Shown: positions 2,149-38,744, counted from the first letter of the stretch. The stretch is 40,625 nt of DNA from a virus (IMGVR_UViG_2541047915_000011); one strand, 5' to 3'. Made by a program: numbers and translations. Notes: a model not told the origin generated them from the letters alone.

Positions 2149-2836
2149 TCCACGGCAATTTTTTCCAGTTACTGGATGGATCTTTCAACCATGCAGTGAC
2201 TTCCTTTAAATCACGGTTCGCAGTGGCGACGGGGGTATCGTATATCATTAACCATTTTTGTCGGGCGCGAACATAAGCACTGGCATAATCTTCCCATGAA
2301 GCGAAACAATCTTGTGCTCTTTGAGCATTCAGTAATAACACTATCCAGGCCTGGTTTTCATCGCACCAGCCTAAACCGGCGATGCAACGAGTTAAAAAAG
2401 CAGTGCGCATACAGTCAAACGCCAGCCCATCCAGAACCTGGCCTTGTGCTGCCAGTTGTTCGTAAAAATCATGTGGAGAATTACCAAGCCCTGTAGCCCA
2501 GCGCTGTAATATAACGCCAATTTGTTGACGGAAATCTTCGTTGCTTTGGTAAGTTTCTGTTCCTAGCTCTTGTTTAACCTGTAGTGCAAGTTGTTGACGC
2601 TTATCATCAGTCAACTTTAAATCTAACGTGAAGCCATTTACTGACAGTCCATTACGACGAGCAACTATATCACCAATTGCTAATGCCCACTTACGTCTCT
2701 TTGTTGCTCGTCTTTTGTCCTTGATTAGATCCTTTTCTTTTTCTTTAGCAATAAAAGCATCGATTTGTGGTTTGTTTTTTTTGTATCTATAGATAAAAAT
2801 AAATATTGCGACCAGGAGAACAATGATAAGACTCAT
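2120..2836 (-). CDS. Hypothetical protein, 238 aa, with N-terminal hydrophobic signal-anchor/TM segment (LIIVLLVAIFIFIY) followed by a basic stretch
   Basis: ORF track. Start overlaps the stop of the upstream 404-aa gene (TAATG-type overlap at 2834-2838), suggesting translational coupling. Confidence 0.6.
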   Translation of the reverse strand: MSLIIVLLVAIFIFIYRYKKNKPQIDAFIAKEKEKDLIKDKRRATKRRKWALAIGDIVARRNGLSVNGFTLDLKLTDDKRQQLALQVKQELGTETYQSNEDFRQQIGVILQRWATGLGNSPHDFYEQLAAQGQVLDGLAFDCMRTAFLTRCIAGLGWCDENQAWIVLLLNAQRAQDCFASWEDYASAYVRARQKWLMIYDTPVATANRDLKEVTAWLKDPSSNWKKLPWNEFKIFEPN

Positions 2837-4050: not shown

Positions 4051-4537
4051 AACATCCGCCCGTGTTTATTATATCACTCAAAGCAATAATTGTTGACTAT
4101 AGATTTTTTATCTAAATCAGCATGGTTGCAGGTACATACTCAAGTAAGCCACTCAAGAAAATAACGTAAACTCAATAGTGGCAGCGTCACAAACTTTGGA
4201 AATTATGTCTTATATTTGCAGTTTATTTTAGTGAATAATTGAGATAAATGACATTATTTTACATCCTCAATAATTCAGGCTGTAAGAGGACGGCAAATAC
4301 ATTCATAATTATCAGGGGATGAACATTCAGGAAAGTAGTCAGTATCGTCAACTTTTTCTTTTATCACTACATGAAGATTTCGTGTAGATACTCCCATCTC
4401 TGCCACTTCTCCCCTCACATTTACACTGGAGCTAAACCCGCCGATTGCGCTACAATGCCCGCCCTTAAAGTGGGGGCACTCCCCTAACCGCTTCATCAGG
4501 TGAAGCGGCTCTGACCTGTCATCAGAACGAGAGAATT

Positions 4538-5899
4538 ATGTTTAAACCGGAACTCCTTTCCCCGGCGGGAACGCTGAAAAATATGCGTTACGCTTTCGCT
4601 TATGGCGCAGATGCTGTTTATGCGGGCCAGCCGCGTTACTCCCTGCGTGTACGCAACAACGAATTCAACCACGAAAATCTTCAGCTCGGCATCAATGAAG
4701 CCCACGCGCTGGGGAAAAAGTTTTATGTCGTGGTCAACATTGCACCGCACAACGCCAAGCTGAAAACCTTTATCCGTGACCTGAAACCGGTGGTGGAAAT
4801 GGGGCCGGATGCGCTGATTATGTCCGATCCAGGGCTGATTATGCTGGTGCGTGAACACTTCCCGGAAATGCCAATCCACCTCTCGGTACAGGCTAACGCC
4901 GTAAACTGGGCGACGGTGAAATTCTGGCAGCAAATGGGTCTGACCCGCGTGATCCTCTCTCGCGAACTGTCACTGGAAGAGATTGAAGAGATCCGCAATC
5001 AGGTGCCGGATATGGAGATCGAAATCTTCGTTCACGGCGCGCTGTGCATGGCCTACTCCGGTCGCTGCCTGCTCTCTGGCTATATCAACAAGCGCGACCC
5101 GAACCAGGGCACCTGCACCAACGCCTGCCGCTGGGAGTACAATGTCCAGGAAGGGAAAGAAGATGACGTCGGCAACATCGTACACAAGTACGAGCCGATT
5201 CCGGTGCAAAATGTTGAGCCGACGCTGGGTATCGGCGCGCCAACCGACAAAGTGTTTATGATCGAAGAAGCCCAGCGTCCGGGCGAGTATATGACCGCGT
5301 TTGAAGATGAGCACGGCACTTACATCATGAACTCGAAAGATCTGCGCGCCATCGCCCATGTTGAACGCCTGACCAAAATGGGCGTGCATTCGCTGAAAAT
5401 CGAAGGCCGTACCAAATCTTTCTACTATTGCGCACGCACCGCGCAGGTTTACCGTAAAGCTATCGATGACGCCGCTGCGGGCAAACCGTTCGATACCAGC
5501 CTGCTGGAAACGCTGGAAGGTCTGGCGCATCGTGGCTATACCGAAGGTTTCCTGCGTCGTCATACCCACGACGATTATCAGAACTACGAATACGGTTATT
5601 CGGTTTCTGACCGCCAGCAGTTTGTTGGTGAGTTTACCGGTGAGCGCAAGGGGGAGCTCGCGGCGGTAGCGGTGAAAAATAAATTCTCCGTTGGCGACAG
5701 CCTTGAGCTGATGACGCCGCAAGGCAACATTAACTTTACCCTTGAGCATATGGAAAACGCCAAAGGTGAAGCGATGCCGGTCGCACCAGGCGATGGTTAT
5801 ACTGTGTGGCTCCCGGTGCCGCAGGATCTTGAGCTAAATTACGCGCTGCTGATGCGTAATTTCTCCGGGGAAACCACGCGTAACCCCCACGGTAAGTGA
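4538..5899 (+). CDS. yegQ: Peptidase U32 family protein YegQ (also called TrhP)
   Basis: 453-aa ORF whose sequence matches my recollection of E. coli YegQ over its length. Sits immediately upstream of CyaR as in E. coli. Confidence 0.9.
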   Translation: MFKPELLSPAGTLKNMRYAFAYGADAVYAGQPRYSLRVRNNEFNHENLQLGINEAHALGKKFYVVVNIAPHNAKLKTFIRDLKPVVEMGPDALIMSDPGLIMLVREHFPEMPIHLSVQANAVNWATVKFWQQMGLTRVILSRELSLEEIEEIRNQVPDMEIEIFVHGALCMAYSGRCLLSGYINKRDPNQGTCTNACRWEYNVQEGKEDDVGNIVHKYEPIPVQNVEPTLGIGAPTDKVFMIEEAQRPGEYMTAFEDEHGTYIMNSKDLRAIAHVERLTKMGVHSLKIEGRTKSFYYCARTAQVYRKAIDDAAAGKPFDTSLLETLEGLAHRGYTEGFLRRHTHDDYQNYEYGYSVSDRQQFVGEFTGERKGELAAVAVKNKFSVGDSLELMTPQGNINFTLEHMENAKGEAMPVAPGDGYTVWLPVPQDLELNYALLMRNFSGETTRNPHGK

Positions 5900-19718: not shown

Positions 19719-20504
19719 ATGTTCAGTGATAATGTGACTAATGCGTGGTGGTTTATCTCTTTGTATCTATTTTTATTAATAGCATTAACATTTATTACCT
19801 TTGGTAAAAGTAATCTTATGAGGTTTATTGCACATCATTTCAATTTTGAGTATTCAGACAGAAAGTTAAAAATGCTCGACAAAAAATGGCGCGACATTCA
19901 ACTATTTAAAATAATTAACGGAATCAATGTATCAGGCATCGAAGATGTGAGAATGATACAGCAGGGGCTGATTGATGGAAAACTAAAAACATCGTATTTT
20001 TTTCTTACTCGCTTCTGGGGTGACATAACAAAACCACCACACATAATTAAAACAATAATTGTAATTCTGTCCAGCATTATTTATATTCTCTTCGCATGTT
20101 ATATACACAACAAACAATCCGCTATAGTAAGAGATGCCATAGGCATACCATATAAAAATATGATGTACTATGTTTATAGTGACAAAGTTCTTTTATCCTT
20201 CAACAATAAAACAGTTGAATTCAATAAAACTTATAGCCATGCCGATTGCAAGAGGCTACGAAACGTATTTATAAAAGACACACTTCCTGAGATCGCCTGC
20301 AATAAGCTCTTACAGCTAAACGAGGAGGACTCGGAATGGTTAAGTCAGGAGATTAAAGATAATAACAGCCAAAAAAAAGCATTATTAATAATATCCCTCA
20401 TCTATTTCATTTCAGGTCTGGTTATATTCCTGTCATATACAAAATTCCTTTACGCCAATAAGAAGGTTGTAGAATACAAAGCATCAAATAAAAATCACTC
20501 ATAA
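19719..20504 (+). CDS. orf30-locus polytopic membrane protein, 261 aa, function unknown
   Basis: AT-rich ORF on the opposite strand between V and S, the slot of P2 orf30. GAGGAG Shine-Dalgarno at about 19707-19712. At least three hydrophobic TM-like segments (N-terminal, central, C-terminal). Confidence 0.7.
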   Translation: MFSDNVTNAWWFISLYLFLLIALTFITFGKSNLMRFIAHHFNFEYSDRKLKMLDKKWRDIQLFKIINGINVSGIEDVRMIQQGLIDGKLKTSYFFLTRFWGDITKPPHIIKTIIVILSSIIYILFACYIHNKQSAIVRDAIGIPYKNMMYYVYSDKVLLSFNNKTVEFNKTYSHADCKRLRNVFIKDTLPEIACNKLLQLNEEDSEWLSQEIKDNNSQKKALLIISLIYFISGLVIFLSYTKFLYANKKVVEYKASNKNHS

Positions 20505-28716: not shown

Positions 28717-29735
28717 TGAGTAAGAAAAAAGGGAAAACACCGCAACCTGCGGCAAAAAAAATGACCGCCAGCGCCCCGAAAATGGAGGCATTCACCTTTG
28801 GTGAGCCGGTGCCGGTACTCGACCGCCGTGACATTCTGGATTACGTCGAGTGCATCAGTAACGGCAGATGGTATGAGCCGCCGGTCAGCTTTACCGGTCT
28901 GGCGAAAAGCCTGCGTGCTGCCGTGCATCACAGCTCGCCGATTTACGTCAAACGCAATATTCTGGCCTCGACATTTATCCCGCATCCGTGGCTTTCCCAG
29001 CAGGATTTCAGCCGCTTTGTGCTGGATTTTCTGGTGTTCGGTAATGCGTTTCTGGAAAAGCGTTACAGCACCACCGGTAAGGTCATCAGACTGGAAACCT
29101 CACCGGCAAAATATACCCGCCGTGGCGTGGAGGAGGATGTTTACTGGTGGGTGCCGTCCTTCAACGAGCCGACAGCCTTCGCGCCCGGCTCCGTGTTTCA
29201 CCTGCTGGAGCCGGATATCAATCAGGAGCTGTACGGCCTGCCGGAATATCTCAGCGCCCTTAACTCTGCCTGGCTGAATGAGTCGGCCACGCTGTTCCGC
29301 CGCAAGTATTACGAAAACGGCGCTCATGCCGGATACATCATGTATGTCACCGATGCCGTGCAGGATCGCAACGATATCGAAATGCTTCGCGAAAACATGG
29401 TTAAGTCGAAAGGCCGCAACAACTTTAAAAACCTGTTTCTCTATGCCCCACAGGGGAAAGCCGACGGCATTAAAATTATCCCCCTCAGTGAAGTGGCGAC
29501 GAAGGACGATTTTTTTAATATCAAAAAAGTCAGCGCCGCAGATCTCCTGGACGCACACCGCATCCCCTTTCAGTTGATGGGCGGTAAGCCGGAGAATGTC
29601 GGGTCACTAGGAGATATTGAAAAAGTGGCAAAGGTCTTTGTCCGCAATGAACTCATTCCATTACAGGAGAGAATAAAGTCAATAAATGAATGGTTAGATA
29701 TGGAAGTCATAAAATTCCTTGATTATAACTTATAA
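28716..29735 (+). CDS. Q: Portal protein gpQ
   Basis: 339 aa, start overlaps the P stop. P2 Q position, on the opposite strand to the capsid genes. Confidence 0.9.
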   Translation: MSKKKGKTPQPAAKKMTASAPKMEAFTFGEPVPVLDRRDILDYVECISNGRWYEPPVSFTGLAKSLRAAVHHSSPIYVKRNILASTFIPHPWLSQQDFSRFVLDFLVFGNAFLEKRYSTTGKVIRLETSPAKYTRRGVEEDVYWWVPSFNEPTAFAPGSVFHLLEPDINQELYGLPEYLSALNSAWLNESATLFRRKYYENGAHAGYIMYVTDAVQDRNDIEMLRENMVKSKGRNNFKNLFLYAPQGKADGIKIIPLSEVATKDDFFNIKKVSAADLLDAHRIPFQLMGGKPENVGSLGDIEKVAKVFVRNELIPLQERIKSINEWLDMEVIKFLDYNL

Positions 29736-29746
29736 GTAAATATATA

Positions 29747-29775
29747 AAGTTGGCGGAATGCAATCCCGCCAACTT
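29747..29775. terminator. Stem-loop between convergent Q and the 2-TM gene (possible bidirectional terminator)
   Basis: Perfect 10-bp stem AAGTTGGCGG / CCGCCAACTT with 9-nt loop. Flanking U-tracts are weak on both strands. Confidence 0.45.
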
Positions 29776-29867
29776 AACTATATATACTTCCTTTTTACTC
29801 TACTTAATTCTATCACTGATGAGGAGTGACAAAATGACAAATTAATAGTATCGATATAATCCAAAAT

Positions 29868-30485
29868 TTAACTCTCAACCTCAATAAAAATATTTTTGGG
29901 CCCATTACTAATCGATATACCGATTTCATCCAAAACAGCCATCATTTTTCTCTGATGAGTTTTATATTTATAGTCTTTATTTTCCTCTGTAATATGTGCA
30001 TTGGCTTCCTCAATAACACATTTGATTCTAGATATTATTTCTAGATAATCTCTCGAAACAGATATATCACCGCCTTGCGCTTCAGGGAACATAACCCTAT
30101 ACCATCTAAAAAAATTAACTTTCTCTGGATAGATGCTACTTCTTTTAGTTAACTCAGCACTTGCAAATTCTCTAAACATCGTCAGATGACTAGTGTAATT
30201 ACTATTATTATTATTTTTAACTCCAGCGTTATATGTCATCAAAGCAATCATAACACCAAAAACGGTAACAAAAGTTGTTATAAGCCATCCAAACGCCTGA
30301 AAATACATTACTATACCAGATGTTTTTTCCGCAAAAAATTTTAAGCACTGGCTATCGAAGCATATATCACGCTCATATAGCTTTTCATTCTGAATAGTTT
30401 CAAAAAGAGAAATTAGCGAAAAAATCAAAAAAAGAGCTGACGACACACCGACAATATATTTGAGAAGTCTAATATTTGCATTCAT
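29868..30485 (-). CDS. Small 2-TM membrane protein (205 aa), candidate effector partner of the adjacent reverse transcriptase
   Basis: ATG at 30483-30485 overlaps the RT stop (ATGA overlap). Hydrophobic helices at about residues 10-28 and 58-84. Strongly AT-rich. Confidence 0.7.
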   Translation of the reverse strand: MNANIRLLKYIVGVSSALFLIFSLISLFETIQNEKLYERDICFDSQCLKFFAEKTSGIVMYFQAFGWLITTFVTVFGVMIALMTYNAGVKNNNNSNYTSHLTMFREFASAELTKRSSIYPEKVNFFRWYRVMFPEAQGGDISVSRDYLEIISRIKCVIEEANAHITEENKDYKYKTHQRKMMAVLDEIGISISNGPKNIFIEVES

Positions 30486-31672
30486 AATGGTTTTAAAGAT
30501 GCCAATCTAGATTTAAAACACTCCAGTTTTTCTTTAAATGATTCAGAGCGAGTAAGAATAATCATCTTATATCTCGTCAAATCATATTTTCTTTTATACC
30601 AATGTTTATTTTGATTACCTTTCGAATACGACAACTCTAAACTTTTTATAGCTGCATCAATCACAGCAACATCTCTTTTAGATGGCATCGGTTTTATTGC
30701 CTGCAACTGTTTCTTGAATGATTCATATTTTTCATGCCCAACACGGCCAAGCTTATTCACTCTCCCCATACATCTATTGAATTCTTTTCTGTATGCAACA
30801 CTTGTTTTTGTGTTATTTTTTGCCGCCAGTAATTTCAAATTATGTATAGATGCCCTGATTCTTTTGACTTCATCGGATGGTAGTCGAGGTGAGTCATAGT
30901 CAACTCTTAAACCATGTACTTTTATAGGTTCAGATGAACAGTGAAATATTTTAGTTTTGTGCTTATTTATCGGCAAGTCATGCTCAGAAAGCATCCTCTC
31001 TATATGGCTTTGCATTTGAGAAAAATCATAATTACTTATTTTAGATGACACGGTAATATCATCTACCAAACGCGTATAAACAAGTCCTTTCCTCTGCGCA
31101 CGTCTTACCACATCCCCTTCAACAGCGAATAAACACAAAGTTGCTATATAGCTTGATGTTAAGGCCCCCTGTACGACAAAATCATCCTTAGTACATATAT
31201 CCACCAAGTATTCAAGAGCCTCATCCTTAATATGCAATATCTCCTCAAACACGCTCCTAACCAGATCTCTATGGATATTATCGAAAAAATTACTTATATC
31301 CACCTTGAGAACTGTTTTTGCTCCACAATGAGCCTTTGCACATGAAACATAGTCACGTTTGACATTAGAATTTAACACATCATTTTTACTGGGAACTGAA
31401 CCAAACAAAAATGAAGGAAAAACAACCAATTCCTTAAAGATACGTTTATTAATTCTACTCTGTAATAATCTCATTTTAGGATGCAGGGAGTAGACAATCC
31501 GTTTGCTTCCGTCAATTTTGGGAATTTCTTTTAGAGTATATTTCTCATCTAATGGTAATTCTGCAATAGCTTTAAGCTCTTCAACAGAAATCGATAAAGC
31601 CTTTGACAACTTTTCAAGTGTTGTGATAGGAGCATTGGATTTGCTGTATGGTTTAAATTTATCCATAAACAT
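30482..31672 (-). CDS. Reverse transcriptase, retron-like (UG/Abi-type not excluded). About 396 aa from the ATG at 31672; the ORF track extends to a TTG at 31756.
   Basis: RT motifs in order: IPKIDGSKRIV, CAKAH, VLKVDISNFFDNI, QGALTSSYIATL, LVYTRLVDDITV (catalytic DD), INKHKTKIF, IKVHGLRV, then a basic C-terminal domain of about 135 aa. Start is ambiguous; the upstream extension overlaps a structured inverted-repeat region. Confidence 0.8.
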   Translation of the reverse strand: MFMDKFKPYSKSNAPITTLEKLSKALSISVEELKAIAELPLDEKYTLKEIPKIDGSKRIVYSLHPKMRLLQSRINKRIFKELVVFPSFLFGSVPSKNDVLNSNVKRDYVSCAKAHCGAKTVLKVDISNFFDNIHRDLVRSVFEEILHIKDEALEYLVDICTKDDFVVQGALTSSYIATLCLFAVEGDVVRRAQRKGLVYTRLVDDITVSSKISNYDFSQMQSHIERMLSEHDLPINKHKTKIFHCSSEPIKVHGLRVDYDSPRLPSDEVKRIRASIHNLKLLAAKNNTKTSVAYRKEFNRCMGRVNKLGRVGHEKYESFKKQLQAIKPMPSKRDVAVIDAAIKSLELSYSKGNQNKHWYKRKYDLTRYKMIILTRSESFKEKLECFKSRLASLKPL

Positions 31673-31689
31673 ACCATTCAAATTCAAAG

Positions 31690-31820
31690 TTACGTACGGT
31701 CTTCCCATACTCAAGGGTGGAACAGCAGAGATGCTTACATCAACAATTGTCAGCAACAGCCTCTGCTATCTTTCGACCGTACGTAATGTCGTCGGCTACG
31801 GCACCATCGTAGTTGACGAC
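31690..31820 (-). repeat. Nested inverted repeats and hairpins in the RT leader (candidate structured RNA element)
   Basis: 12-bp perfect inverted repeat TTACGTACGGTC (31690-31701 and 31775-31786) enclosing a 7-bp inner repeat AGCAGAG/CTCTGCT. Adjacent hairpin at 31788-31820 with 13-bp imperfect stem GTCGTCGGCTACG / CGTAGTTGACGAC. Confidence 0.5.
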
Positions 31821-31997
31821 GGTGGGGCCTCGCTGATAGGTCCATAGTGGACGCTTTTTTGTAAAAGCAAAAACTGACAATTTAATGTTGTTGACTGCCG
31901 CATACCAAGCGAATCGCTGGTGCGCTAAGAATAATGCAACAAAAAAATAAGAATTTCAACCGGGTAACTGCAAGCCAGCGACATCGTTTAGCGCGCA

Positions 31998-32016
31998 GTG
32001 CTTTCCCCGCCTCGCC
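31998..32016. other. cos cohesive-end sequence (P2 type)
   Basis: Minus strand reads GGCGAGGCGGGGAAAGCAC, matching the 19-nt P2 cohesive end as I recall it. Lies between the RT and gene A. Confidence 0.7.
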
Positions 32017-32588
32017 CGCCCGCTTCATGTGGCGGTTTTAATGCAGTTGCATAGATACTATGGATCCGCACCAGCTCTGACCGCAAGCAGCTGGAACGGG
32101 CATCCCCGACGCATGCAAAAACATTCACTTGTTGCATGCACGGCTTATTTAATGACAAATCAACTTAAGCGTCACCGAAGCTCCCACAAAAAAAACGTAA
32201 CGCCATGATTTTAGTGATATTTATGACTTTTTTAATTGCTTATTTAAGTCCGCCATATTGAAACCGTGCATTTTTTAGCCACCAATAACTTTAAAAAATT
32301 TACATTGCTTTCAATACCTTATCATCCGTAGTCCCTGCTTTTTACTTTGAGCTATATCAAAAAAAGCTCAAACATCCTTGATGCAAAACCAGTATTACAC
32401 AACATAAAATGCAACCAGAAACAACGACATACTATATGTTGTGTTGTTCAGGCTCTCTGTTCGGTGATATGCCAGATCACTTTGCGTTTAAACAGAGCAT
32501 TATTTCAGGGCAAGACTTCGCTAAATAGTAACTCCGCCTTAGAAGCGCATATATCGGCGGAAATTGCCCTCTGCTTACAGGAGGAGAT

Positions 32589-32699
32589 ATGAAGAAGTGC
32601 TATTACTGCATTCTCGTTCTGGCCCTCTTTGGCTATCCATATGGTAGTCCAAGTGGTTTGTCAGTAAACGTCAGTAATATCCATGTAAGTATTATTCTT
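32589..32699 (+). CDS. Possible small hydrophobic protein (36 aa, MKKCYYCILVLALFGYPYGSPSGLSVNVSNIHVSIIL)
   Basis: AGGAGG Shine-Dalgarno at 32579-32584, ATG at 32589, stop TAG directly before the bidirectional terminator. Below the ORF-track size cut-off. Expression unverified. Confidence 0.3.
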
Positions 32700-32713
32700 T
32701 AGTATGCTTCAAA

Positions 32714-32745
32714 CAAAAAAACCACCTGCCAGGGTGGTTTTTTTG
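32714..32745. terminator. Bidirectional intrinsic terminator (ends the A operon on the minus strand and the small ORF on the plus strand)
   Basis: A7 tract, AACCACC / GGTGGTT stem with TGCCAG loop, then T7 tract. Confidence 0.6.
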
Positions 32746-33004
32746 CGCCTGTCATCATTCCGATGAAAGACTAGCAAGACTTCGCTCGAGATGAATTATG
32801 CTTCGACAAAAGGTCACTCGCAATGGTTTTATTAGCCGAAATAGATGCTCTTTTATGACTCGAATCAAATAGCTGCCTTAAATTACATGCTAGCGATTCA
32901 ATACAATTTAGCCTTCTACTTCAGCATGCTATTGCTCCTCATCTGCCTTAGAGGCGCTTCGCATAATCCATTCAAAGGCATATAAAATCACGCTGCATTT
33001 TTAC

Positions 33005-35287
33005 TCAAATGGGTAACAAAAATCCAGGCCACTCATCAGCGACCTGATAATTGAAAGATTTCCCGTAATAATTTACGGTCGCGCCACGCGCCAGCGCCTC
33101 AAGCTCCCATCGCTGCGGCCTGATACCGTTCTGAGCAAGGTCAACGCGGATACGGGTAATTTGCATTCTTTCCGACCGGGTCAGTCTGGCCGATGGTGCA
33201 ATTTCATGTGGTTTTAACGGGCTTCCGTTTCTTTGCTGACGATTTGGTGTTCTCAGGTCGTGTTTTAATGCCCCCCTGAGCGCCCTCACGACCTCCGTGT
33301 CATTCCATTCGATAACACCGTCATCAACCAGATTAAGCACTGCTGCGGCGTGTTCAGAAGGTGTGGGAGCCGGTAACGAAGTATCACCACCGGTGAGCTT
33401 TCCACAGTTATTGACAGGACTCCGAGGCGCGGCGATGCCGCTTTTTAAAGTCAAAGGCTCAACGACCGGAACTTTCGGCACAATGCGCCAGTCCGTCGTT
33501 CTGGTGATATGAATATGACGCGCGCCGAGATGCGGCGCGTAAATGCCGACCACTCTCTCGACTTCTTCCTCGTACTCGTTAACGTCATCCGACGGGCTAC
33601 GGGCGACCCTGACAGTCTGACAATCGCGCGGGACATTTGCCCCGCCCTGCGCGCTGATATACAACGCAAAATCACCACTGTCTGCAGCGGCGCGTGCAGC
33701 CTCGACGCGCTCGTCAAACTCATCAGCAATGCTGACGCCGCGAGGCAATTTGCGTAGTTCACGGTAAGCCCCCATTGTCGGCAGACCAACCGTTTTAAAT
33801 TGCGGAATGCGCCACGTTGACGCCCATGCGGTAACAGCCGCTGCAGTATCTTTCAGCGGCCTGCCGGTATCGTTATCGAGCTGACCATCCAGTGCATAGC
33901 CGTCGATGTTTTTTGAAATGTATTTCGCGATATACCCCGCAGCACCGCCCCGGTTAAGATGTTTTGCCTGAAAACGGTTTCGCGCAGCTCCTCTTTCGTC
34001 GCCATCCTCTTTGAGCGCGTAGCGACGCATGATTTCAATAATCTGGTTACGCTGGCGTGGATTACAAAAAAGCATCATATGCCAGTGCGGCGTTCCGTCG
34101 TGGTGTGGCTCGACGACTCGCAAACCGTAGACCTGTAAATCATTATCCTTGAATGCCGTGCGCATCAGGCTCCAGATACGGCAGAGATATCGCTGCGCAT
34201 CCTTTGGATTAAATGCCTCATCATTCCAGCCGTGATTAAGCTGGACGGTTTTACTTTCGCCTTTTCCGACCTGACGTGTCGGGTGATACTTTGACGGCGC
34301 GGTCAGCGTGATAAACATCCCCACATCGCCCTCTGCGGCGGCGTAACGCTCAATACCGGCAATGGTGTTCATCAGCTCCATCCGGCGAATTTCAGGATTA
34401 GAAATACTGCCCATAACCTTACTGATAAGGTCGATGCGCTCGCCGGTTTCCCTGTTTTCAAGGTCACACGATTTAAGAAATTCCAGATTTGCCTGGCGGC
34501 GCGCACGCACATCACGAATGGCATGTTTACTGGCATAAGGAGAACGGTCTTTATTCACCTCCCCGACAGCAATCAGTAACGCCTCATGCCAGCGCATACG
34601 CTGGCCTTTAAGCTGACTAATCCACCACTCATCGTTAAACAGGCGGGCAATGGCAGAATATGCCTGCCTCGTGGTCATCTGTCCTTTACGGTATTTTTTC
34701 CAGAAAAGCGGGGAAATATTGAAAGCACGTGCAGCGCCAGCAACATGACCATACAGATGCGCCTGCGCCTCATCTGTAAACAGCGATTCTTTCTCGCCAT
34801 GTGCATCAACCCAGGCATCGCAGAGTTCCTCATACATCATGAAAAGCTGCGATGAAATACGGGCGGCAAACTTTTTCAGCTCCTTGTCATTCATCCCCGG
34901 CAGACGCGCATAATGGTCACGCTCTGCCAGAAACAGCAACGACGCGTCGGTGTTCATTTCATGGCGCTGATTCACGCGCTCAATACGCGGCCATAAACGG
35001 CGCTGAAAAGTGGATGTGAGGAAATAAAACCCGTGTAGCGGGCTTTTATTGCGCCGTATGTAGTCATAACGTGAAGTAAACAGCGAGCGCAAAAAGTAAG
35101 GCAGGCGGTTAATCGTGGATAAAACACCTTGCACCTGACGCATCTCGTCACGTGTAAGGGGTCTTTCGCGCCCGACAGCCTCGCGTGGCGTATTCCATGC
35201 ATAAGCACCGGTAAACGCCTTACCGGTGCCTGCGGCAAACGCAGACGGAGGTACGCAGGTGTATTGCTCCTGGAAAGAATGACTCAT
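33005..35287 (-). CDS. A: Replication initiation protein gpA (rolling-circle initiator)
   Basis: 760 aa, P2 A size and position. Start overlaps the stop of the upstream PP-loop gene. Confidence 0.9.
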   Translation of the reverse strand: MSHSFQEQYTCVPPSAFAAGTGKAFTGAYAWNTPREAVGRERPLTRDEMRQVQGVLSTINRLPYFLRSLFTSRYDYIRRNKSPLHGFYFLTSTFQRRLWPRIERVNQRHEMNTDASLLFLAERDHYARLPGMNDKELKKFAARISSQLFMMYEELCDAWVDAHGEKESLFTDEAQAHLYGHVAGAARAFNISPLFWKKYRKGQMTTRQAYSAIARLFNDEWWISQLKGQRMRWHEALLIAVGEVNKDRSPYASKHAIRDVRARRQANLEFLKSCDLENRETGERIDLISKVMGSISNPEIRRMELMNTIAGIERYAAAEGDVGMFITLTAPSKYHPTRQVGKGESKTVQLNHGWNDEAFNPKDAQRYLCRIWSLMRTAFKDNDLQVYGLRVVEPHHDGTPHWHMMLFCNPRQRNQIIEIMRRYALKEDGDERGAARNRFQAKHLNRGGAAGYIAKYISKNIDGYALDGQLDNDTGRPLKDTAAAVTAWASTWRIPQFKTVGLPTMGAYRELRKLPRGVSIADEFDERVEAARAAADSGDFALYISAQGGANVPRDCQTVRVARSPSDDVNEYEEEVERVVGIYAPHLGARHIHITRTTDWRIVPKVPVVEPLTLKSGIAAPRSPVNNCGKLTGGDTSLPAPTPSEHAAAVLNLVDDGVIEWNDTEVVRALRGALKHDLRTPNRQQRNGSPLKPHEIAPSARLTRSERMQITRIRVDLAQNGIRPQRWELEALARGATVNYYGKSFNYQVADEWPGFLLPI

Positions 35288-36291
35288 TCACATACACCGG
35301 CATAGACACTACTGCAAACGGCTTTATCATTCGCCGAAGCCAGTAAATCAAACTGAGTACCCCCACGCGTTGTCATTGTCCAGTCATGGTAGGTTTCAAT
35401 TCCGTATGCCTCGACTGTTACAACCTCAATACGACGTTCTGCGCGTAACGGATCATGTGTGGATGGGAAAAAAGTGGAATTTCCCCGACGGGAGCACGAC
35501 GCAACCAGTCGTTCCCATTCAGCAACCCGCTTTATTTCCTCCGGCCACCGGCGAAAAATTTCTGCCAGTTCAGATTTACGGACATGAATACATGGCATAC
35601 AACCAACACGGCCACACCCCTGCTGATATAACGGATTTGGCTTAATGTCATGTCTTCTGGCTATTGCAAATACATCTTCATGCTTCCAGTGCAAAATCGG
35701 GCGATATACATGCAATCCGGGGGTGTTGTCTGCATCCTCTTCCCAGACAGGTAAAGCTGCGCGTGATGGCGATTCCTGAGCACGCACTCCCTGCCAGCTA
35801 ATCACTTCCTCAAATTCATTGAGTAAAGGCAGGATTACCTGAGAACGCACGGGTTCATGTTTCAGTTCAAATGTGCAAAATCTGGCTTTGGTTGATGGGA
35901 AACGCCCCTTCCACAGACACAAATCAAGAAACGGGATACCCGTTGGTTTGAGAATTTCCAGCGCACAACTGATGCGCTGGTGCGCTTCTTCTTCCGACAT
36001 TCCACAATCGTTAACCAACAAATCAGGCCATTTGGTCTGGATAAACTTGCGCTTTGATTCAATCCGGCAGGAAAAATCAGCCCTGACCCTTTTAATTGGG
36101 CCAAGCCGTTTTTCCAGATAATCCAGATATTTCATTGTCTGTGGATGTTCATGTCCCGTATCAGCAAAAACCGGCAATATGGGTACATTTTCTTCAATAG
36201 CGACAAGCCACTGAGCAAGGCTGTCCTTTCCACCTGAAACAAAAATAACATTGATGGTATTTTCAGTATGGCAACGAGCATCAGTAATCAT
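35284..36291 (-). CDS. PAPS-reductase-like PP-loop ATP pyrophosphatase family protein (335 aa)
   Basis: PP-loop motif FVSGGKDS near the N-terminus and a C-terminal Cys cluster (CGRVGCMPC). 4-nt overlaps with orf83 upstream and A downstream. Confidence 0.75.
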   Translation of the reverse strand: MITDARCHTENTINVIFVSGGKDSLAQWLVAIEENVPILPVFADTGHEHPQTMKYLDYLEKRLGPIKRVRADFSCRIESKRKFIQTKWPDLLVNDCGMSEEEAHQRISCALEILKPTGIPFLDLCLWKGRFPSTKARFCTFELKHEPVRSQVILPLLNEFEEVISWQGVRAQESPSRAALPVWEEDADNTPGLHVYRPILHWKHEDVFAIARRHDIKPNPLYQQGCGRVGCMPCIHVRKSELAEIFRRWPEEIKRVAEWERLVASCSRRGNSTFFPSTHDPLRAERRIEVVTVEAYGIETYHDWTMTTRGGTQFDLLASANDKAVCSSVYAGVCE

Positions 36292-36566
36292 TCAGACGCT
36301 CCTCTGGAGAACGCCTCTGAACAACGCTTGCTGAGCTGCTCAACCTGCGCGTTTAAATCGGCAAAAGACTTTGCGCTTCCGGTCAGAATATCGTGATGCA
36401 TCAGGCCGGAAACGAGCTGGCTTAATTTCGGGTAATAACCAACCACCGACAGCCATTCCTGACCGGCGTTTTTACCGCTTTCCGCTCTCTTTTTCTCGTG
36501 GAGAATAAACTGAAAGCTGTCACTGGTAACGACATAACGTTCGCCAATTTCAATACGAATACTCAT
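36288..36566 (-). CDS. Early-operon small protein, P2 orf83-like
   Basis: 92-aa ORF in the expected position, overlapping neighbours by 4 nt. Confidence 0.7.
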   Translation of the reverse strand: MSIRIEIGERYVVTSDSFQFILHEKKRAESGKNAGQEWLSVVGYYPKLSQLVSGLMHHDILTGSAKSFADLNAQVEQLSKRCSEAFSRGASE

Positions 36567-36787
36567 GCCGTTCTCCGGTAATGTTTGTTTTTTGCTTCAA
36601 AGACTGACTGACAGGAAACACAACGCGTGGCTGACGGATAAGCCGCACGACGGGCAGCAGGTATTGGCGCGTCACACTCTTCGCAAACCAGCGCAGAAGC
36701 ACCGCAATGTTTTACCCTTGCCGCGTTAATCTGGCGCTCCAGTAATTCAGTCTGTTGTTCCTGAATAAAATCTACGTTGTCCGGCAT
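36563..36787 (-). CDS. TraR/DksA-family C4 zinc-finger protein, P2 orf82-like
   Basis: 74 aa with CxxC-N17-CxxC (CEECDAPIPAARRAAYPSATRCVSC). Confidence 0.75.
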   Translation of the reverse strand: MPDNVDFIQEQQTELLERQINAARVKHCGASALVCEECDAPIPAARRAAYPSATRCVSCQSVFEAKNKHYRRTA

Positions 36788-36789
36788 TA

Positions 36790-37092
36790 TCAGCTCCTTT
36801 TATCGTTAAGTTTCCTGGATACATCAGCGCAATAACTGGCAAGTTCTGTCGTTAATTTTGTCAGTTCATCCACGGAGGAAATTTGCTTGTGGAATACAGC
36901 GCGTTTAACAAGTAAATTGACCACATCAGACAGGAGGTTTAATTCATTCTGATAAATCGCGATAACAGATTCAGTGATGTCGCGTTTTTCTTTATCAAGA
37001 CAAAGTTGAATAAGAGACAAATCACCATTTTCCATAACGGCGATTTTTAAGGCGTTATTCAGTAATACAACTGAATGAGAACAGGACATCAA
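36790..37092 (-). CDS. Early-operon small protein, P2 orf81-like
   Basis: 100-aa ORF, position. Confidence 0.7.
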
Positions 37093-37346
37093 AGTACCTC
37101 CCCGCGAGACAATCCGATATTGTGAAATTTTTCCGACTCCTGACTGAGCAGCTCGACTATCTCCACGCGGGATAACTCCGCCTTTGTGATGTGGCGAATC
37201 ATGGCGTCAAGATGAGAAGAAAAGCGCGTCGCCGCGTCGGCCTGTGCTTCGGTTCTGGCCTGTTGCAGCAGTAATGCGTATTTACCGCACTGATTTTCAG
37301 AAACTGTATGCATGACTTTCTCCAGGCAAAAAGAAGCCCCGCACAA
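37089..37346 (-). CDS. Early-operon small protein, P2 orf80-like
   Basis: 85-aa ORF, position. Confidence 0.7.
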
Positions 37347-37376
37347 TTAAGTGCGTTAAAAACTCTGGTTAATTAC

Positions 37377-37877
37377 TTAATGCAGATATTGCTCTGGTTT
37401 TACCGACGTCAGAATTGTCGGTGCATACTCAAACAGGCTGAATAATTCACGTAATGCACGGAATAAAGCATCACGCCAGTAACATGACTCTTCATTAATT
37501 CGCCAGTATGGCTGGTTGAATTCTTTTTCAGTCAATCCGGCATGCATAAATAAAGTACGACGCTGACTGACTGTTAAAAAACTAATATATGCATACTCAC
37601 TTGCACCGACCTGACGGCGTTTTGAGAATGCCCCACGCAATTCATCAATTGCACAAACCAGCCGTTCACGTTCGACGTCGTTCATTTCTTCAAAACGCAT
37701 CGTTGCGTGACGTTGTTTTAACTGCGCATGAAAGCAAACTGTTAGCCGTTCGCGCTCCATCATCTGATTATAATAATCACATGTATCCTGCCAGCGAGGA
37801 ACGGCAAGATGCTTACCAATTATCCGGCGCATGGTTGCTGGCTGTTTTTCAACGAGATTGAGCGTCATCACTGTCAT
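37377..37877 (-). CDS. B: Replication protein gpB (166 aa)
   Basis: MTVMTLNLVEKQPA... from the third Met of the ORF-track ORF, giving the P2 B length. Confidence 0.8.
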   Translation of the reverse strand: MTVMTLNLVEKQPATMRRIIGKHLAVPRWQDTCDYYNQMMERERLTVCFHAQLKQRHATMRFEEMNDVERERLVCAIDELRGAFSKRRQVGASEYAYISFLTVSQRRTLFMHAGLTEKEFNQPYWRINEESCYWRDALFRALRELFSLFEYAPTILTSVKPEQYLH

Positions 37878-38068
37878 TTCCATACCCTCCGGCTTTTCAG
37901 AAAGGTCAGAGCCTTTTTTAACGGACTCTGTTTTTTGGTGCGGATAATGATTCCCTTACGCCCCTTACCGTGGGTGATGGTGAAGTCAATCGCCCTGGGG
38001 CTTTCGTTACGCAGTAACTGAGCAATACAACGAGGCTCATTCATACGGTTCTCCTTAACGTGGTTCAC
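37874..38068 (-). CDS. Small basic protein, P2 orf78-like (start uncertain)
   Basis: 64-aa ORF between cox and B. Overlaps the cox 3' end; a later internal Met may be the true start. Confidence 0.45.
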   Translation of the reverse strand: MNHVKENRMNEPRCIAQLLRNESPRAIDFTITHGKGRKGIIIRTKKQSPLKKALTFLKSRRVWK

Positions 38069-38330
38069 CGAGACCTAACCACATCAACCAGCCGTCACGA
38101 ATCTCTTTAGGGCGGCTTTCATAAGCCAGTTTTAGTCCGTTATTCCATGCCGGAAGGTATACCCAATATTCACCTGCACGACCTGAAGCTGATTGTGGAT
38201 CGGTCATATCAATTACAGGCAGCTTTCCTTTATCGATCATCCGACGAACCGCTCCTGTCGATTTTCCTATTAGTTTTGCGAACTCCTGATAAGGAATCGC
38301 ATCAGCCATGAGTGTTACTTGCTTGCTCAT
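38055..38330 (-). CDS. cox: Cox, excisionase and early-promoter regulator
   Basis: 91 aa, divergent from C, P2 Cox size. Confidence 0.8.
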   Translation of the reverse strand: MSKQVTLMADAIPYQEFAKLIGKSTGAVRRMIDKGKLPVIDMTDPQSASGRAGEYWVYLPAWNNGLKLAYESRPKEIRDGWLMWLGLGEPR

Positions 38331-38444
38331 GTCGTCCCCCAGCCCTCATGAATTGCGTTTAATGCCTTATAATGCCTTTTAGTGCCCACATCCAAGCACT
38401 AAACAATCTACATCTAAACCAAATACTATTGAGATCTAAACACT
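38331..38444. promoter_or_regulatory. Immunity switch region (expected divergent Pe/Pc promoters with operator repeats)
   Basis: TATAAT at about 38368-38373 (plus strand). Tandem direct repeats AATGCCTT (38361-38368, 38371-38378) and ATCTAAAC (38412-38419, 38434-38441). Lies between divergent cox and C. Confidence 0.5.
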
Positions 38445-38744
38445 ATGTCAAACACGATAAGCGAGAAGATAGTCTTAATGCGAAAATCAGAGTATTTGAG
38501 CAGACAACAACTTGCTGATTTAACAGGGGTACCGTATGGCACGCTGAGTTACTATGAAAGTGGTCGTTCAACACCTCCAACAGATGTCATGATGAACATC
38601 CTGCAGACCCCACAATTCACCAAATACACTTTATGGTTCATGACCAATCAGGTCGCTCCTGAGTCCGGGCAAATTGCGCCCGCTCTCGCACACTTTGGGC
38701 AAAACGAAACAACGTCGCCCCACTCCGGTCAAAAGACTGGTTAA
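38445..38744 (+). CDS. C: Immunity repressor C
   Basis: 99 aa, P2 C size, upstream of int on the same strand. Confidence 0.85.
   Translation: MSNTISEKIVLMRKSEYLSRQQLADLTGVPYGTLSYYESGRSTPPTDVMMNILQTPQFTKYTLWFMTNQVAPESGQIAPALAHFGQNETTSPHSGQKTG

What the first reader, a model, noticed from the sequence alone, without database searches (positions are those of the whole stretch)
35284..36291. PAPS-reductase-like PP-loop gene embedded in the early replication operon, translationally coupled to gene A
A 335-aa protein with the PP-loop motif SGGKDS and a C-terminal cysteine cluster sits between orf83 and A, with 4-nt overlaps on both sides. As far as I recall P2 itself has A directly after orf83, and related phages carry accessory DNA-modification genes in this region. 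Early co-expression with the replication initiator would suit a DNA-modification or anti-restriction function, but the substrate cannot be inferred from sequence.
Basis: partly seen in the sequence, partly recalled or inferred. Interest (0 to 1): 0.45.

Follow-up and report, generated by a model that had tools for sequence, protein, structure and literature searches.

The report
Phage 186 orf84-type PAPS-reductase-like early gene
A P2-type prophage carries an optional, already-annotated early gene (the counterpart of phage 186 orf84) for an ATP-using, probably iron-sulfur enzyme related to DNA-sulfur-modification proteins; the gene and its link to replication gene A are known, but what it acts on is still untested.

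Summary
A 335-aa ORF lies on the minus strand at 35284..36291. It has a canonical SGGKDS PP-loop and a PF01507 domain (E=5e-35). ATGA start/stop overlaps join it to orf83 (DUF5405) and to replication gene A.

It is not new. It is the orthologue (77% identity, same position) of phage 186 orf84, whose record says [quoted passage not shown]. Identical proteins are already annotated in RefSeq.

It is accessory. P2 lacks it: a 1,061-bp cassette replaces 41 bp of P2. Only 68 of 5,426 complete E. coli genomes carry a homologue, against 1,612 with the P2-type flank.

It fails the CysH, APS-reductase and DndC equivalog cut-offs. Four cysteines are near-invariant (C139, C231, C234, C334). The fold is closest to Fe-S APS reductase. 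dN/dS is at most 0.07.

DNA methyltransferases are its commonest neighbours. Dam sits within two genes upstream in at least 16 of 38 P2-like viral loci. A PAPS-Dam fusion was published as part of a two-gene anti-Dnd cassette.

Best reading (about 0.45): an early-expressed, DNA-directed PP-loop/Fe-S modification or counter-defence enzyme, not a sulfate-assimilation gene. The substrate is unknown. Interest is modest.

The parts
35284..36291 (-). orf84-type PAPS-reductase-superfamily gene (335 aa plus stop)
   Evidence: ORF list. PF01507 E=5e-35. phrog_424 E=9e-86. 76.6% identical to phage 186 orf84 at the same position. dN/dS <=0.07 against the 186 and L036 alleles.
36220..36237 (-). Codons for the PP-loop S19-G-G-K-D-S24 (ATP pyrophosphatase motif)
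   Evidence: Sequence. S19, G21, K22, D23 and S24 are invariant in 89 homologues. In profile alignments the CysH and APS-reductase chains have non-canonical sequence here, SSSFGIQ and SFSGAED.
35875..35877 (-). Codon for Cys139 in the F-C-x-x-x-L-K motif
   Evidence: Conserved in 100% of 83 full-length representatives, and K144 is also 100% conserved. The motif is retained as FCTDRLK in lambda NinC. By my own reading of the alignment it corresponds to the Cys-Cys region (HECCRLRKV) of M. tuberculosis APS reductase.
35590..35601 (-). Codons for C231-M-P-C234 (CxxC)
   Evidence: C231 is 100% and C234 96% conserved. The motif aligns with the GCAPC and GCEPC CxxC motifs of the M. tuberculosis and P. 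aeruginosa APS reductases.
35287..35298 (-). Codons for the conserved C-terminus G332-V-C334-E335
   Evidence: G332 90%, C334 96% and E335 90% conserved. The segment lies in the low-confidence tail 274-335 of the model.
35284..35287 (-). ATGA overlap: stop of the PAPS-like gene and start of gene A
   Evidence: The same junction occurs in phage 186, where the record states that translation to the end of orf84 appears necessary for A translation. No AGGAGG-like Shine-Dalgarno sequence precedes the A start (direct reading).
36288..36291 (-). ATGA overlap: stop of orf83 (DUF5405) and start of the PAPS-like gene
36299..36304 (-). GAGGAG Shine-Dalgarno sequence 7 nt upstream of the PAPS-like gene's ATG, inside the cassette-specific 3' end of orf83
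   Evidence: Read directly: + strand ctcctc at 36299..36304.
35252..36312 (-). 1,061-bp cassette that replaces 41 bp of phage P2: last ~8 codons of orf83, the whole PAPS-like gene, and the first 12 codons of A
   Evidence: Global alignment to P2 AF063097. Homology is 98.3% up to 36313 and 95.5% from 35251 onwards, with nothing meaningful between.
36288..36566 (-). orf83 homologue (DUF5405), the upstream neighbour
   Evidence: PF17399 E=6e-15. Aligned to P2 orf83.
33005..35287 (-). Gene A (rolling-circle replication initiator), the downstream coupled gene
   Evidence: PF05840 E=1e-123. phrog_91.
38423..38451 (-). Pe-like early promoter (TTGACA-17-TAGTAT), the likely driver of the operon cox...A
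   Evidence: Promoter scan. Its position matches the annotated P2 Pe next to the C repressor start. No promoter-like site lies just upstream of the PAPS-like gene on the minus strand.

Best explanation
The feature is an optional single-gene cassette in the early (Pe) lytic operon of a P2-type prophage. It is the orthologue of phage 186 orf84.

Shown here. The protein belongs to the PAPS-reductase superfamily. It keeps a canonical ATP-type PP-loop (SGGKDS). It has four near-invariant cysteines: C139, the C231-x-x-C234 pair, and C334 one residue from the C-terminus. Its predicted core fold is closest to the [4Fe-4S] APS reductase. It is under strong purifying selection. It has its own Shine-Dalgarno sequence, and its stop overlaps the start of gene A (ATGA).

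Inferred. The enzyme binds ATP and adenylates a substrate oxygen, releasing PPi. A [4Fe-4S] site (C139, C231, C234, with either an open iron site or C334 as fourth ligand) and the C334 thiol or persulfide on a flexible tail then deliver sulfur or act as the nucleophile. This is the chemistry proposed for DndC, SspD and BrxP, and for the TtuA-type thiolases.

The most likely substrate is replicating phage DNA. The enzyme would act with host factors (IscS, Dam) or, in most relatives, with an adjacent phage DNA methyltransferase. The most likely biological role is counter-defence during lytic growth. Because the gene lies in the repressor-controlled early operon, it should be silent in the lysogen.

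Its termination codon also hands ribosomes to gene A. Enzyme and replication initiator are therefore made together and early.
For: Identity and anatomy.

Orthology and coupling: phage 186 orf84 is 76.6% identical, sits in the same position, and its record notes 'not essential; translation to end of orf84 appears necessary for translation of A'. The junction sequence is shared.

Accessory status: the cassette boundaries are defined. P2 lacks the gene. 68 of 5,426 E. coli genomes have a homologue against 1,612 with the flank.

Real enzyme: dN/dS <=0.07. 309 representative clusters score E<1e-30.

ATP-type PP-loop and conserved cysteines.

Relatives in DNA sulfur modification: SspD HMM E=3e-21, BrxP 8e-13, DndC 1e-7.

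Linkage to DNA methyltransferases:
- C5, N6/N4 and MT-A70 methylases are the top Pfam families among 144 neighbours in 41 diverse viral loci, 11 members in all.
- A D12 Dam lies at gene position -1 or -2 in at least 16 of 38 P2-like loci and in a 186-like E. coli prophage with a 4-nt overlap.
- In phiE125 a C5-MTase gene overlaps the PAPS-like gene.
- Methylases are also nearby in phages S1, Alfacinha1 and Parlo, in locus L012, and in E. coli C11.

Experiment in the literature: transferring a two-gene cassette that includes a PAPS-Dam fusion from one Vibrio phage to another let the recipient infect a Dnd-bearing host. Aca-regulated PAPS reductases have been proposed as anti-defence genes.

Operon position: the only promoter-like sites on the coding strand are Pe and one inside gene B.
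Against: No substrate or activity has been measured for this family.

All four established phosphorothioation systems need a P-loop NTPase as well as the PAPS-reductase-domain protein. Isolates with a PAPS-reductase gene but no dndD-type NTPase showed no phosphorothioate. I found no methylase or partner gene in this cassette or among the unassigned window ORFs I scanned.

This window's phage has no methyltransferase next to the gene, unlike most relatives.

The protein fails the DndC equivalog cut-off by far: 21 bits against 290.

HMM similarity to SspD (74 bits) is no better than to CysH (67 bits), so homology alone does not pick the DNA-modifying branch.

The conserved C-terminal 60 residues are modelled with pLDDT <50, so the cysteine geometry is untested.

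Methyltransferases are common in phage early regions, so part of the neighbourhood signal may be positional.

The published anti-Dnd fusion is a distant relative. It was transferred together with a second gene of unknown function, and the authors attribute the effect to the PAPS domain only 'at least in part'.
Confidence: 0.45

Rival explanations
1. Subunit mimic or interference. The protein does not modify phage DNA on its own. It plugs into, or poisons, host phosphorothioation-based systems (Dnd, Ssp, BREX type 4) as a DndC/SspD look-alike. Either it recruits the host DndD/E or SspB/C machinery to phage DNA, or it blocks the restriction arm.
For: HMM similarity to SspD, BrxP and DndC. A published anti-Dnd phenotype for a phage cassette containing a PAPS-Dam fusion. 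A lone PAPS-domain protein is reported to be insufficient for phosphorothioate synthesis, which fits a need for host partners. The gene is a single-gene cassette.
Against: The full catalytic apparatus (PP-loop and four cysteines) is strictly conserved across more than 80 diverged relatives. A pure decoy would not require that. dnd and ssp clusters occur in only 4.3% and 3.0% of representative genomes, whereas the phage family is broad. The tight linkage to methyltransferases is not explained.
Confidence: 0.15
2. It is an RNA, nucleotide or small-molecule enzyme. It thiolates or adenylates tRNA or another RNA, or a free nucleotide, rather than DNA. Precedents are TtuA, NcsA and ThiI on tRNA, and YcfA on a guanine nucleotide.
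Against: Sequence and fold are closer to the PAPS/APS-reductase branch, which includes DndC, SspD and BrxP. The genomic company is DNA methylases, ParB_N, helicase-primase and replication initiators, not RNA-modification genes.
Confidence: 0.15
3. It is an auxiliary metabolic gene: a CysH-like sulfonucleotide reductase that makes sulfite from PAPS or APS to boost sulfur assimilation during infection. This is the usual database-driven reading.
For: The annotation 'phosphoadenosine phosphosulfate reductase' is used everywhere. The best structural matches are APS and PAPS reductases. The DTG and G-x-R-x-E-S-x-x-R motifs are shared. One preprint interprets prophage PAPS reductases this way.
Against: It fails every curated equivalog cut-off: PRK02090 67 against 154, TIGR00434 47 against 165, TIGR02055 53 against 235, TIGR02057 40 against 254. 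It keeps the ATP-type SGGKDS where the aligned reductase chains have non-canonical sequence. It ends in G-V-C-E instead of the ECGLH catalytic motif that I recall for these reductases. From my own knowledge, E. coli already has cysH and the rest of the pathway. The gene sits in replication and early modules next to DNA methylases, not with sulfur genes.
Confidence: 0.1
4. It is a replication-linked helper or mainly a translational leader. The ORF would matter chiefly because ribosomes finishing it start gene A. Alternatively its product acts on the gpA or ori complex, for example on the nicked origin.
For: Coupling to A is documented in phage 186. An (A/G)TGA overlap ends the gene in 59 of 80 viral loci. 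There is recurrent adjacency to replication initiators: gpA in P2-like phages, RepB-family initiator in IncC plasmids, O/P proteins, primase and helicase.
Against: P2 and about 96% of E. coli genomes with the P2-type flank express A without it. The 186 record says 'not essential'. dN/dS <=0.07 and invariant catalytic residues show selection on the enzyme, not just on an ORF.
Confidence: 0.08
5. It is a prophage-encoded defence gene (lysogenic conversion), like the P2 genes old, tin and fun. It would modify host DNA or sense invaders.
For: PAPS-reductase-domain proteins occur in defence systems: Dnd, Ssp, BREX type 4 and a PANGU-like cluster. The same prophage carries a retron.
Against: The gene is internal to the repressor-controlled early lytic operon and has no promoter of its own. 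It is translationally coupled to A, so it should be silent in lysogens. It is not in the known P2 cargo hotspots (my own knowledge of P2).
Confidence: 0.05

Closest known systems
Phage 186 orf84 (NP_052288; CP84) and its PHROG family phrog_424
   Same: 76.6% identical over the full length. Same slot immediately upstream of A, same ATGA stop/start junction and the same C-terminal ...SSVYAGVCE. The 186 record documents that it is non-essential and that A translation depends on translation to its end.
   Different: Here it sits on a P2-type (cox/C) backbone directly after orf83. In 186 it follows an extra exonuclease-like gene and a DUF5405 gene. In many 186-like prophages a Dam methylase gene precedes it. 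Biochemical function is unknown for both.
DndC, SspD and BrxP (PAPS-reductase-domain sulfur-inserting subunits of DNA phosphorothioation systems)
   Same: Same superfamily, and HMM hits to all three. The literature describes DndC as an Fe-S protein with ATP pyrophosphatase activity. All are associated with DNA modification and phage-host conflict.
   Different: It fails the DndC equivalog cut-off, 21 against 290 bits. It is much smaller than the DndC HMMs (447-586 positions) and BrxP (779). It lacks the DUF4007 fusion of BrxP. It has no neighbouring DndD, SspC or BrxC NTPase, no DndE or SspB, and no cysteine desulfurase. It has a family-specific conserved C-terminal region ending in C-E.
Assimilatory APS/PAPS reductases (CysH; PDB 2goy, 7lhr, 1sur, 6vpu)
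   Different: It has a canonical ATP PP-loop where the aligned reductase chains do not. There is a single Cys where M. tuberculosis APS reductase has a Cys-Cys pair. It ends in GVCE, not the ECGLH motif I recall for these enzymes. It carries insertions and about 100 extra C-terminal residues. It scores below all curated cut-offs. It is found in a phage replication-module context.
Bacteriophage lambda NinC (ORF-290)
   Same: Homologous over the N-terminal two-thirds: hhalign probability 98%, E=7.5e-14, 27% identity. The same cysteine layout is present: FCTDRLK, a C-I-F-C pair, and C-S-E-S-C-E near the C-terminus. It too is an early-region phage gene of unknown function.
   Different: The PP-loop is SGGRTS. 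The C-terminal half is not alignable by profile. It lies in the nin region rather than next to the replication initiator.
PAPS-Dam fusion protein of Vibrio crassostreae podoviruses (Piel et al., 10.1101/2021.05.05.442762)
   Same: A phage-encoded PAPS-reductase domain physically linked to a Dam methylase. This mirrors the Dam-PAPS gene pairs of P2/186-like phages. It is the only experimental phenotype in this area (anti-Dnd).
   Different: It is a fusion protein whose PAPS domain is only about 170 residues, and I did not align its sequence here. The phenotype was obtained by moving two genes together and is attributed to the PAPS domain only 'at least in part'. The window's gene has no phage Dam partner.

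Membership tests
PAPS_reduct superfamily (Pfam PF01507) | Score above the Pfam gathering threshold over the whole domain | tested here: met
   121.4 bits against 22.5. Residues 15-236 cover profile positions 3-174 of 175.
Phage 186 orf84 family (phrog_424) | Full-length similarity to 186 orf84 and to the PHROG profile | tested here: met
   76.6% identity over residues 2-335. phrog_424 E=8.6e-86 over residues 1-334.
Phage 186 orf84 family (phrog_424) | Position immediately upstream of replication gene A with a stop/start overlap | tested here: met
   ATGA at 35284..35287. The arrangement is identical in 186 and occurs in 35 of 38 P2-like viral loci.
Assimilatory PAPS/APS reductase (CysH) | Reaches the NCBIfam equivalog or subfamily cut-offs | tested here: not met
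   PRK02090 67.4 against 154. TIGR00434 46.7 against 165.1. TIGR02055 53.1 against 235.3. TIGR02057 39.9 against 254.2.
Assimilatory PAPS/APS reductase (CysH) | C-terminal catalytic E-C-G-L-H motif (motif recalled from my own knowledge) | tested here: not met
   The protein ends ...VYAGVCE. The family consensus is G-x-C-E at the last four residues.
Assimilatory PAPS/APS reductase (CysH) | Modified, non-ATP P-loop | tested here: not met
   The query has the canonical SGGKDS. The aligned CysH and APS-reductase chains have SSSFGIQ and SFSGAED.
DndC (DNA phosphorothioation sulfurtransferase) | TIGR03183 equivalog score | tested here: not met
   21.3 bits against a cut-off of 290.4, with only residues 132-209 matched. 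PADLOC DndC models score E=1e-7 or weaker.
DndC (DNA phosphorothioation sulfurtransferase) | Clustered with dndD (ATPase) and dndE, with or without dndA and dndB | tested here: not met
   The neighbours are DUF5405, TraR-type zinc finger, DUF2732, gpB and gpA. The window ORFs I scanned show no P-loop NTPase or cysteine desulfurase.
SspD (Ssp phosphorothioation) | Similarity to the SspD profile | tested here: inconclusive
   PADLOC SspD E=3.1e-21, 74 bits, but partial: residues 127-282 against profile positions 73-216 of 277. There is no curated cut-off. The score is similar to the CysH score.
SspD (Ssp phosphorothioation) | Clustered with sspB (nickase) and sspC (ATPase) | tested here: not met
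   Neither is present in the operon or among the scanned window ORFs.
BrxP (BREX type 4) | PAPS-reductase domain fused to DUF4007, encoded next to brxC, brxZ and brxL | tested here: not met
   Only PF01507 is detected in the 335-aa protein. The BrxP HMM match is partial: E=8e-13, profile positions 212-336 of 779. The architecture is as described.
[4Fe-4S]-dependent PP-loop sulfur-insertion enzymes (works-like comparison: TtuA, NcsA, DndC) | Canonical SGGxDS PP-loop plus at least three invariant cysteines | tested here: met
[4Fe-4S]-dependent PP-loop sulfur-insertion enzymes (works-like comparison: TtuA, NcsA, DndC) | Actual Fe-S cluster binding and ATP pyrophosphatase or sulfur-transfer activity | not testable with these tools
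   This needs purified protein (UV-vis, EPR, activity assays). The model's C-terminal 62 residues have pLDDT <50.
Lambda NinC-type phage PAPS-reductase homologues | Profile-level homology and a shared cysteine layout | tested here: met
   hhalign probability 98.1%, E=7.5e-14 over 173 columns. NinC has FCTDRLK, C-I-F-C and C-S-E-S-C-E. The relationship is distant and the C-terminal half does not align.

The most novel reading that the evidence does not exclude
The orf84/NinC-type proteins could be a phage-borne, minimal DNA sulfur-modification system. A single PP-loop/[4Fe-4S] enzyme would be guided by a DNA methyltransferase (the adjacent phage Dam or C5 methylase, or host Dam in this prophage). 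It would act on the nicked or single-stranded DNA produced by gpA-driven rolling-circle replication. It would install a phosphorothioate or thio-base mark on progeny phage DNA without the dedicated NTPase that the four established phosphorothioation systems require. This would be a fifth, virus-encoded route to sulfur in DNA, used as counter-defence.
Probability: 0.15. Interest if true: 0.8.

Novelty: already known. Interest (0 to 1): 0.3.

Why it matters
The gene itself is ordinary. It is annotated, 100% identical copies exist in RefSeq E. coli genomes, and its position and coupling to A were recorded for phage 186.

What remains open is the function of the large class of 'PAPS reductase' genes in phages and plasmids: lambda NinC, 186 orf84, an IncC plasmid gene next to the replication initiator gene, and Bifidobacterium, Thermus and Burkholderia phages. 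These are routinely called sulfur-metabolism auxiliary genes.

This analysis gives concrete reasons to doubt that label for this family:
- an ATP-type PP-loop;
- scores below every CysH equivalog cut-off;
- a conserved 3+1 cysteine layout;
- tight linkage to DNA methyltransferases and replication modules.

P2/186 is a tractable system in which natural with/without variants already exist. If the DNA-modification reading were confirmed, it would re-annotate thousands of mobile-element genes and could add a virus-encoded sulfur DNA modification.

Tried and rejected
1. Sequence search of PDB with the C-terminal 142 residues. It found only the APS-reductase CxxC region and chance hits, and nothing for residues 240-335.

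2. A weak profile hit to a PDB chain named 'PptA' (21fy_C, E=0.0015). A literature search for PptA found nothing relevant, so I dropped it.

4. I looked for an intrinsic terminator early in gene A, like tM1 of phage 186. The scan reports no such site at the 5' end of A. A 10-bp perfect hairpin (GCACCGGTAA...TTACCGGTGC) is present about 60 nt into A but has no T-run. The only P2-annotated terminator equivalent is the one after gene B, at 37340..37355.

5. Rfam scan of 29500..38600 at E<=0.1 gave no hits.

6. BLAST clustering of neighbours in the diverse viral loci gave almost no recurrent clusters. Only the Pfam-level scan revealed the methyltransferase enrichment.

7. N-terminally extended or insertion-bearing relatives (P0121, P0123-P0125, P0134, P0139, P0250, Alfacinha gp49) show no extra Pfam domain, so I found no ParB or methylase fusion in this subfamily. 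Separate ParB_N genes do sit directly downstream in some metagenomic phages.

8. GC content does not mark the cassette as foreign: 0.468 against 0.459 for the rest of the early operon.

9. I did not test whether host genomes carrying the gene also carry dnd or ssp clusters. The tools offer no annotation search, and a counter-defence gene need not match its current host.

10. My first alignment (A1) used a reference that dropped the start codon. Positions are therefore shifted by one. A2 uses the correct sequence.

Full report
**1. The observation**

The ORF is real but lies on the minus strand: 35284..36291, ATG start, 335 aa.
- Residues 19-24 are SGGKDS.
- Pfam PAPS_reduct (PF01507) matches residues 15-236 at E=5.4e-35.
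- The upstream ORF (36288..36566) is DUF5405, the family of P2 orf83.
- The downstream ORF (33005..35287, 760 aa) is replication gene A (Phage_GPA, E=1e-123).
- Both junctions are ATGA stop/start overlaps.
- A GAGGAG Shine-Dalgarno sequence lies 7 nt upstream of the ORF's ATG, while nothing comparable precedes the A start (read).
- The 'cysteine cluster' needs refining. Of the twelve cysteines, only C139, C231, C234 and C334 are near-invariant. C125 and C326 are 76-82% conserved. C226 is conserved in only 4% of 83 full-length representatives (confirmed in an 89-sequence alignment).

**2. It is an accessory cassette, and it is already known**

Megablast of the early region against phage records shows that P2 (AF063097) matches in two pieces, and its annotation has orf83 abutting A. 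A global alignment places the breakpoints at window 36313 and 35251. A 1,061-bp segment replaces 41 bp of P2. That segment carries the last ~8 codons of orf83, the whole gene and the first 12 codons of A, so it brings both coupling junctions with it.

The protein is 76.6% identical to phage 186 orf84, which occupies the same slot. The 186 record says: 'unknown function; not essential. translation to end of orf84 appears necessary for translation of A protein'. The junction ...TATGCCGGTGTATGTGAATGA is shared.

Distribution:
- Yersinia phage P37 and some Peduovirus genomes have an 81.5% identical allele.
- An identical protein already exists in public collections as a cluster with 185 member sequences.
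- At least 30 complete E. coli genomes carry the gene at >=99% nucleotide identity, and RefSeq annotates it as a PAPS reductase family protein.
- Among 5,426 complete E. coli genomes, 1,612 carry the P2-type flank but only 68 carry any homologue. These fall into three allele groups: >=99%, about 78% and about 72.6% nucleotide identity.

The gene is optional.

The gene is nevertheless a real enzyme gene. dN is 0.15-0.27 with saturated dS, giving dN/dS <=0.07. The wider family has 309 representative clusters at E<1e-30.

**3. What kind of enzyme**

Curated equivalog models reject CysH, APS reductase and DndC:
- PRK02090: 67 bits against a cut-off of 154.
- TIGR00434: 47 against 165.
- TIGR02055: 53 against 235.
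- TIGR03183 (DndC): 21 against 290.

In the defence-system library the best hits are SspD (E=3e-21), BrxP (8e-13) and DndC (1e-7). All are partial.

An AlphaFold2 model built from an 89-sequence alignment has mean pLDDT 78. It is confident for residues 1-230 and falls below 50 for residues 274-335. Its nearest solved structures are:

In sequence alignments C231-x-x-C234 coincides with the CxxC motif of the M. tuberculosis and P. aeruginosa APS reductases. By my own reading, C139 in F-C-x-x-x-L-K corresponds to their Cys-Cys/Lys region.

Unlike the aligned reductases, the family keeps the canonical ATP-pyrophosphatase PP-loop where they have non-canonical sequence. It also ends in an invariant G-x-C-E instead of the ECGLH motif that I recall for those enzymes.

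My inference is a PP-loop ATP pyrophosphatase with a three- or four-cysteine Fe-S site and a reactive cysteine on a flexible C-terminal tail. This is the chemistry attributed to DndC, SspD and BrxP and to the TtuA-type thiolases. It is not a PAPS reductase.

Lambda NinC is a distant relative with the same cysteine layout.

**4. Context**

In annotated phages carrying 42-47% identical homologues, DNA methyltransferases are adjacent or close:
- In phiE125 the gp56 C5-methylase gene overlaps gp57 by 4 nt.
- Methylases are nearby in S1, Alfacinha1 and Parlo.
- In metagenomic locus L012 the gene is flanked by N6_N4 and C5 methylases.

I then scanned 144 proteins within two genes of the homologue in 41 diverse IMG/VR loci. 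The top Pfam families were DNA_methylase (7 members) and N6_N4_Mtase (3), plus one MT-A70.

Among 38 P2-like loci, a D12 Dam methylase lies at gene position -1 or -2 in at least 16. The window's arrangement (DUF5405 directly upstream) occurs in only 5. gpA follows in most.

A 186-like E. coli prophage shows TraR-Dam-PAPS-A. A P2-like prophage with the ~78% allele has a cytosine methylase just after A.

Elsewhere the gene sits beside ParB_N, helicase and primase genes, primase and helicase genes, replication protein O or lambda-P-type replication proteins. In an IncC plasmid a distant homologue sits beside the RepB-family replication initiator gene.

The window's own prophage has no methylase next to the gene, and none turned up among its unassigned ORFs.

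**5. Literature**

- A Vibrio phage PAPS-Dam fusion, transferred together with a second gene of unknown function, let another phage infect a Dnd-bearing host. The authors attribute the effect to the PAPS domain 'at least in part' (10.1101/2021.05.05.442762).
- Aca-regulated phage PAPS reductases have been proposed as anti-defence genes (PMC13551039).
- PAPS-reductase homologues in lambda, Thermus phages and type IV-B CRISPR loci are described as unexplained (PMC11437467).
- Others interpret prophage copies as sulfur auxiliary metabolic genes (10.64898/2026.02.18.706556).
- One point cuts against the favoured reading. All established phosphorothioation systems need a P-loop NTPase as well as the PAPS-domain protein, and isolates with a PAPS-reductase gene but no dndD-type NTPase showed no phosphorothioate (PMC12914056).

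**6. How it most likely works**

Transcription comes from the Pe-like promoter at 38423..38451. No promoter-like site lies in front of the gene. The gene should therefore be off in the lysogen and on early in lytic growth.

Ribosomes load at the cassette's own Shine-Dalgarno sequence, translate the enzyme, and at the ATGA junction re-initiate on A. This is shown by the sequence, and functionally documented only for 186.

The enzyme then probably acts on replicating phage DNA using ATP and host sulfur supply. It may be targeted by host Dam here, and by a co-encoded methylase in most relatives. The result would be protection from, or interference with, host defence.

My confidence declines step by step:
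- about 0.7 that it is an ATP-using Fe-S PP-loop enzyme;
- about 0.45 that it has a DNA-modification or counter-defence role;
- about 0.15-0.2 that the product is specifically a sulfur mark made without a dedicated NTPase.

Rivals are a subunit mimic of host phosphorothioation systems, an RNA or nucleotide thiolase, a CysH-like metabolic gene, a leader or helper for A, and a prophage defence gene. They are listed with their tests.

**7. Verdict**

The feature is a known, annotated, optional gene of P2/186-like phages.

The points this analysis adds are:
- the exact cassette boundaries;
- the 3+1 conserved cysteine pattern;
- the failure of the CysH and DndC membership tests;
- the Dam-PAPS-A synteny;
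- the family-wide (A/G)TGA ending.

Interest is modest (0.3).

Noticed in passing
window 29868..31756 (-), plus 31757..33004: A retron-like pair lies between portal gene Q and gene A: a 424-aa reverse transcriptase (PF00078, E=2e-31) and a 205-aa ORF with no Pfam hit. The best phage match is pro147, annotated 'RNA-directed DNA polymerase' and 'retron Ec48 family effector membrane protein'. The next ~1.2 kb (31757..33004) has low GC (about 0.41 in its A-proximal part), has no ORF of 90 aa or more, and may hold the msr/msd RNA. Rfam found nothing.
   Followed up: partly
loci L013-L092 (IMG/VR), end of each PAPS-like gene; window 35284..35287: The gene ends in (A/G)TGA in 59 of 80 viral loci, including 24 of 42 diverse ones. 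Among the 71 loci where the ORF stops right after the conserved C-E, 59 use TGA, 7 TAA and 5 TAG. This suggests family-wide selection for a stop/start overlap with whatever gene follows, and it may partly explain conservation of the terminal Glu codon. I did not verify that a downstream gene really starts there in the diverse loci.
   Followed up: partly
L098 (IncC plasmid NZ_CP043192.1) 4494..5609; plasmid collection: Distant homologues (about 26% identity over residues 132-328) occur in 1,218 plasmid records, of which 1,052 are predicted conjugative. In the one IncC plasmid I examined, a 371-aa 'PAPS reductase family' gene lies about 1.5 kb from the RepB-family replication initiator gene. 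This echoes the phage placement next to replication genes.
   Followed up: partly
window 36288..36566 (-) and 36790..37092 (-); L094 344..637: The early operon holds two DUF5405 paralogues (the orf83-like and orf81-like genes). An unrelated Vibrio phage that carries a short PAPS-reductase gene in its primase/helicase module also has a 'CP83' family gene nearby. DUF5405/CP83 may therefore travel with this enzyme family.
   Followed up: no
L093 682..1554 (lambda NinC): Lambda NinC shares the PP-loop (SGGRTS), FCTDRLK, a C-I-F-C pair and a C-terminal C-S-E-S-C-E with the orf84 family. The two classic phage 'PAPS reductases' therefore seem to share one catalytic design.
   Followed up: partly
window 1..5899 and 19719..20504 (+): The left end of the window is host DNA. 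It has DUF4034 (715 aa, which reaches the window's left end), DUF1266 and PcfJ-like ORFs on the minus strand, and a U32 peptidase gene at 4538..5899. Inside the prophage late region, a 261-aa plus-strand ORF (19719..20504) has no significant Pfam match and is oriented against its neighbours, so it may be a cargo gene.
   Followed up: no
L097 5896..6008 (E. coli C11 prophage): In a P2-like prophage carrying the ~78% allele of the gene, a DNA cytosine methyltransferase gene sits immediately downstream of A. This is the slot that holds the retron region in the window.
   Followed up: no
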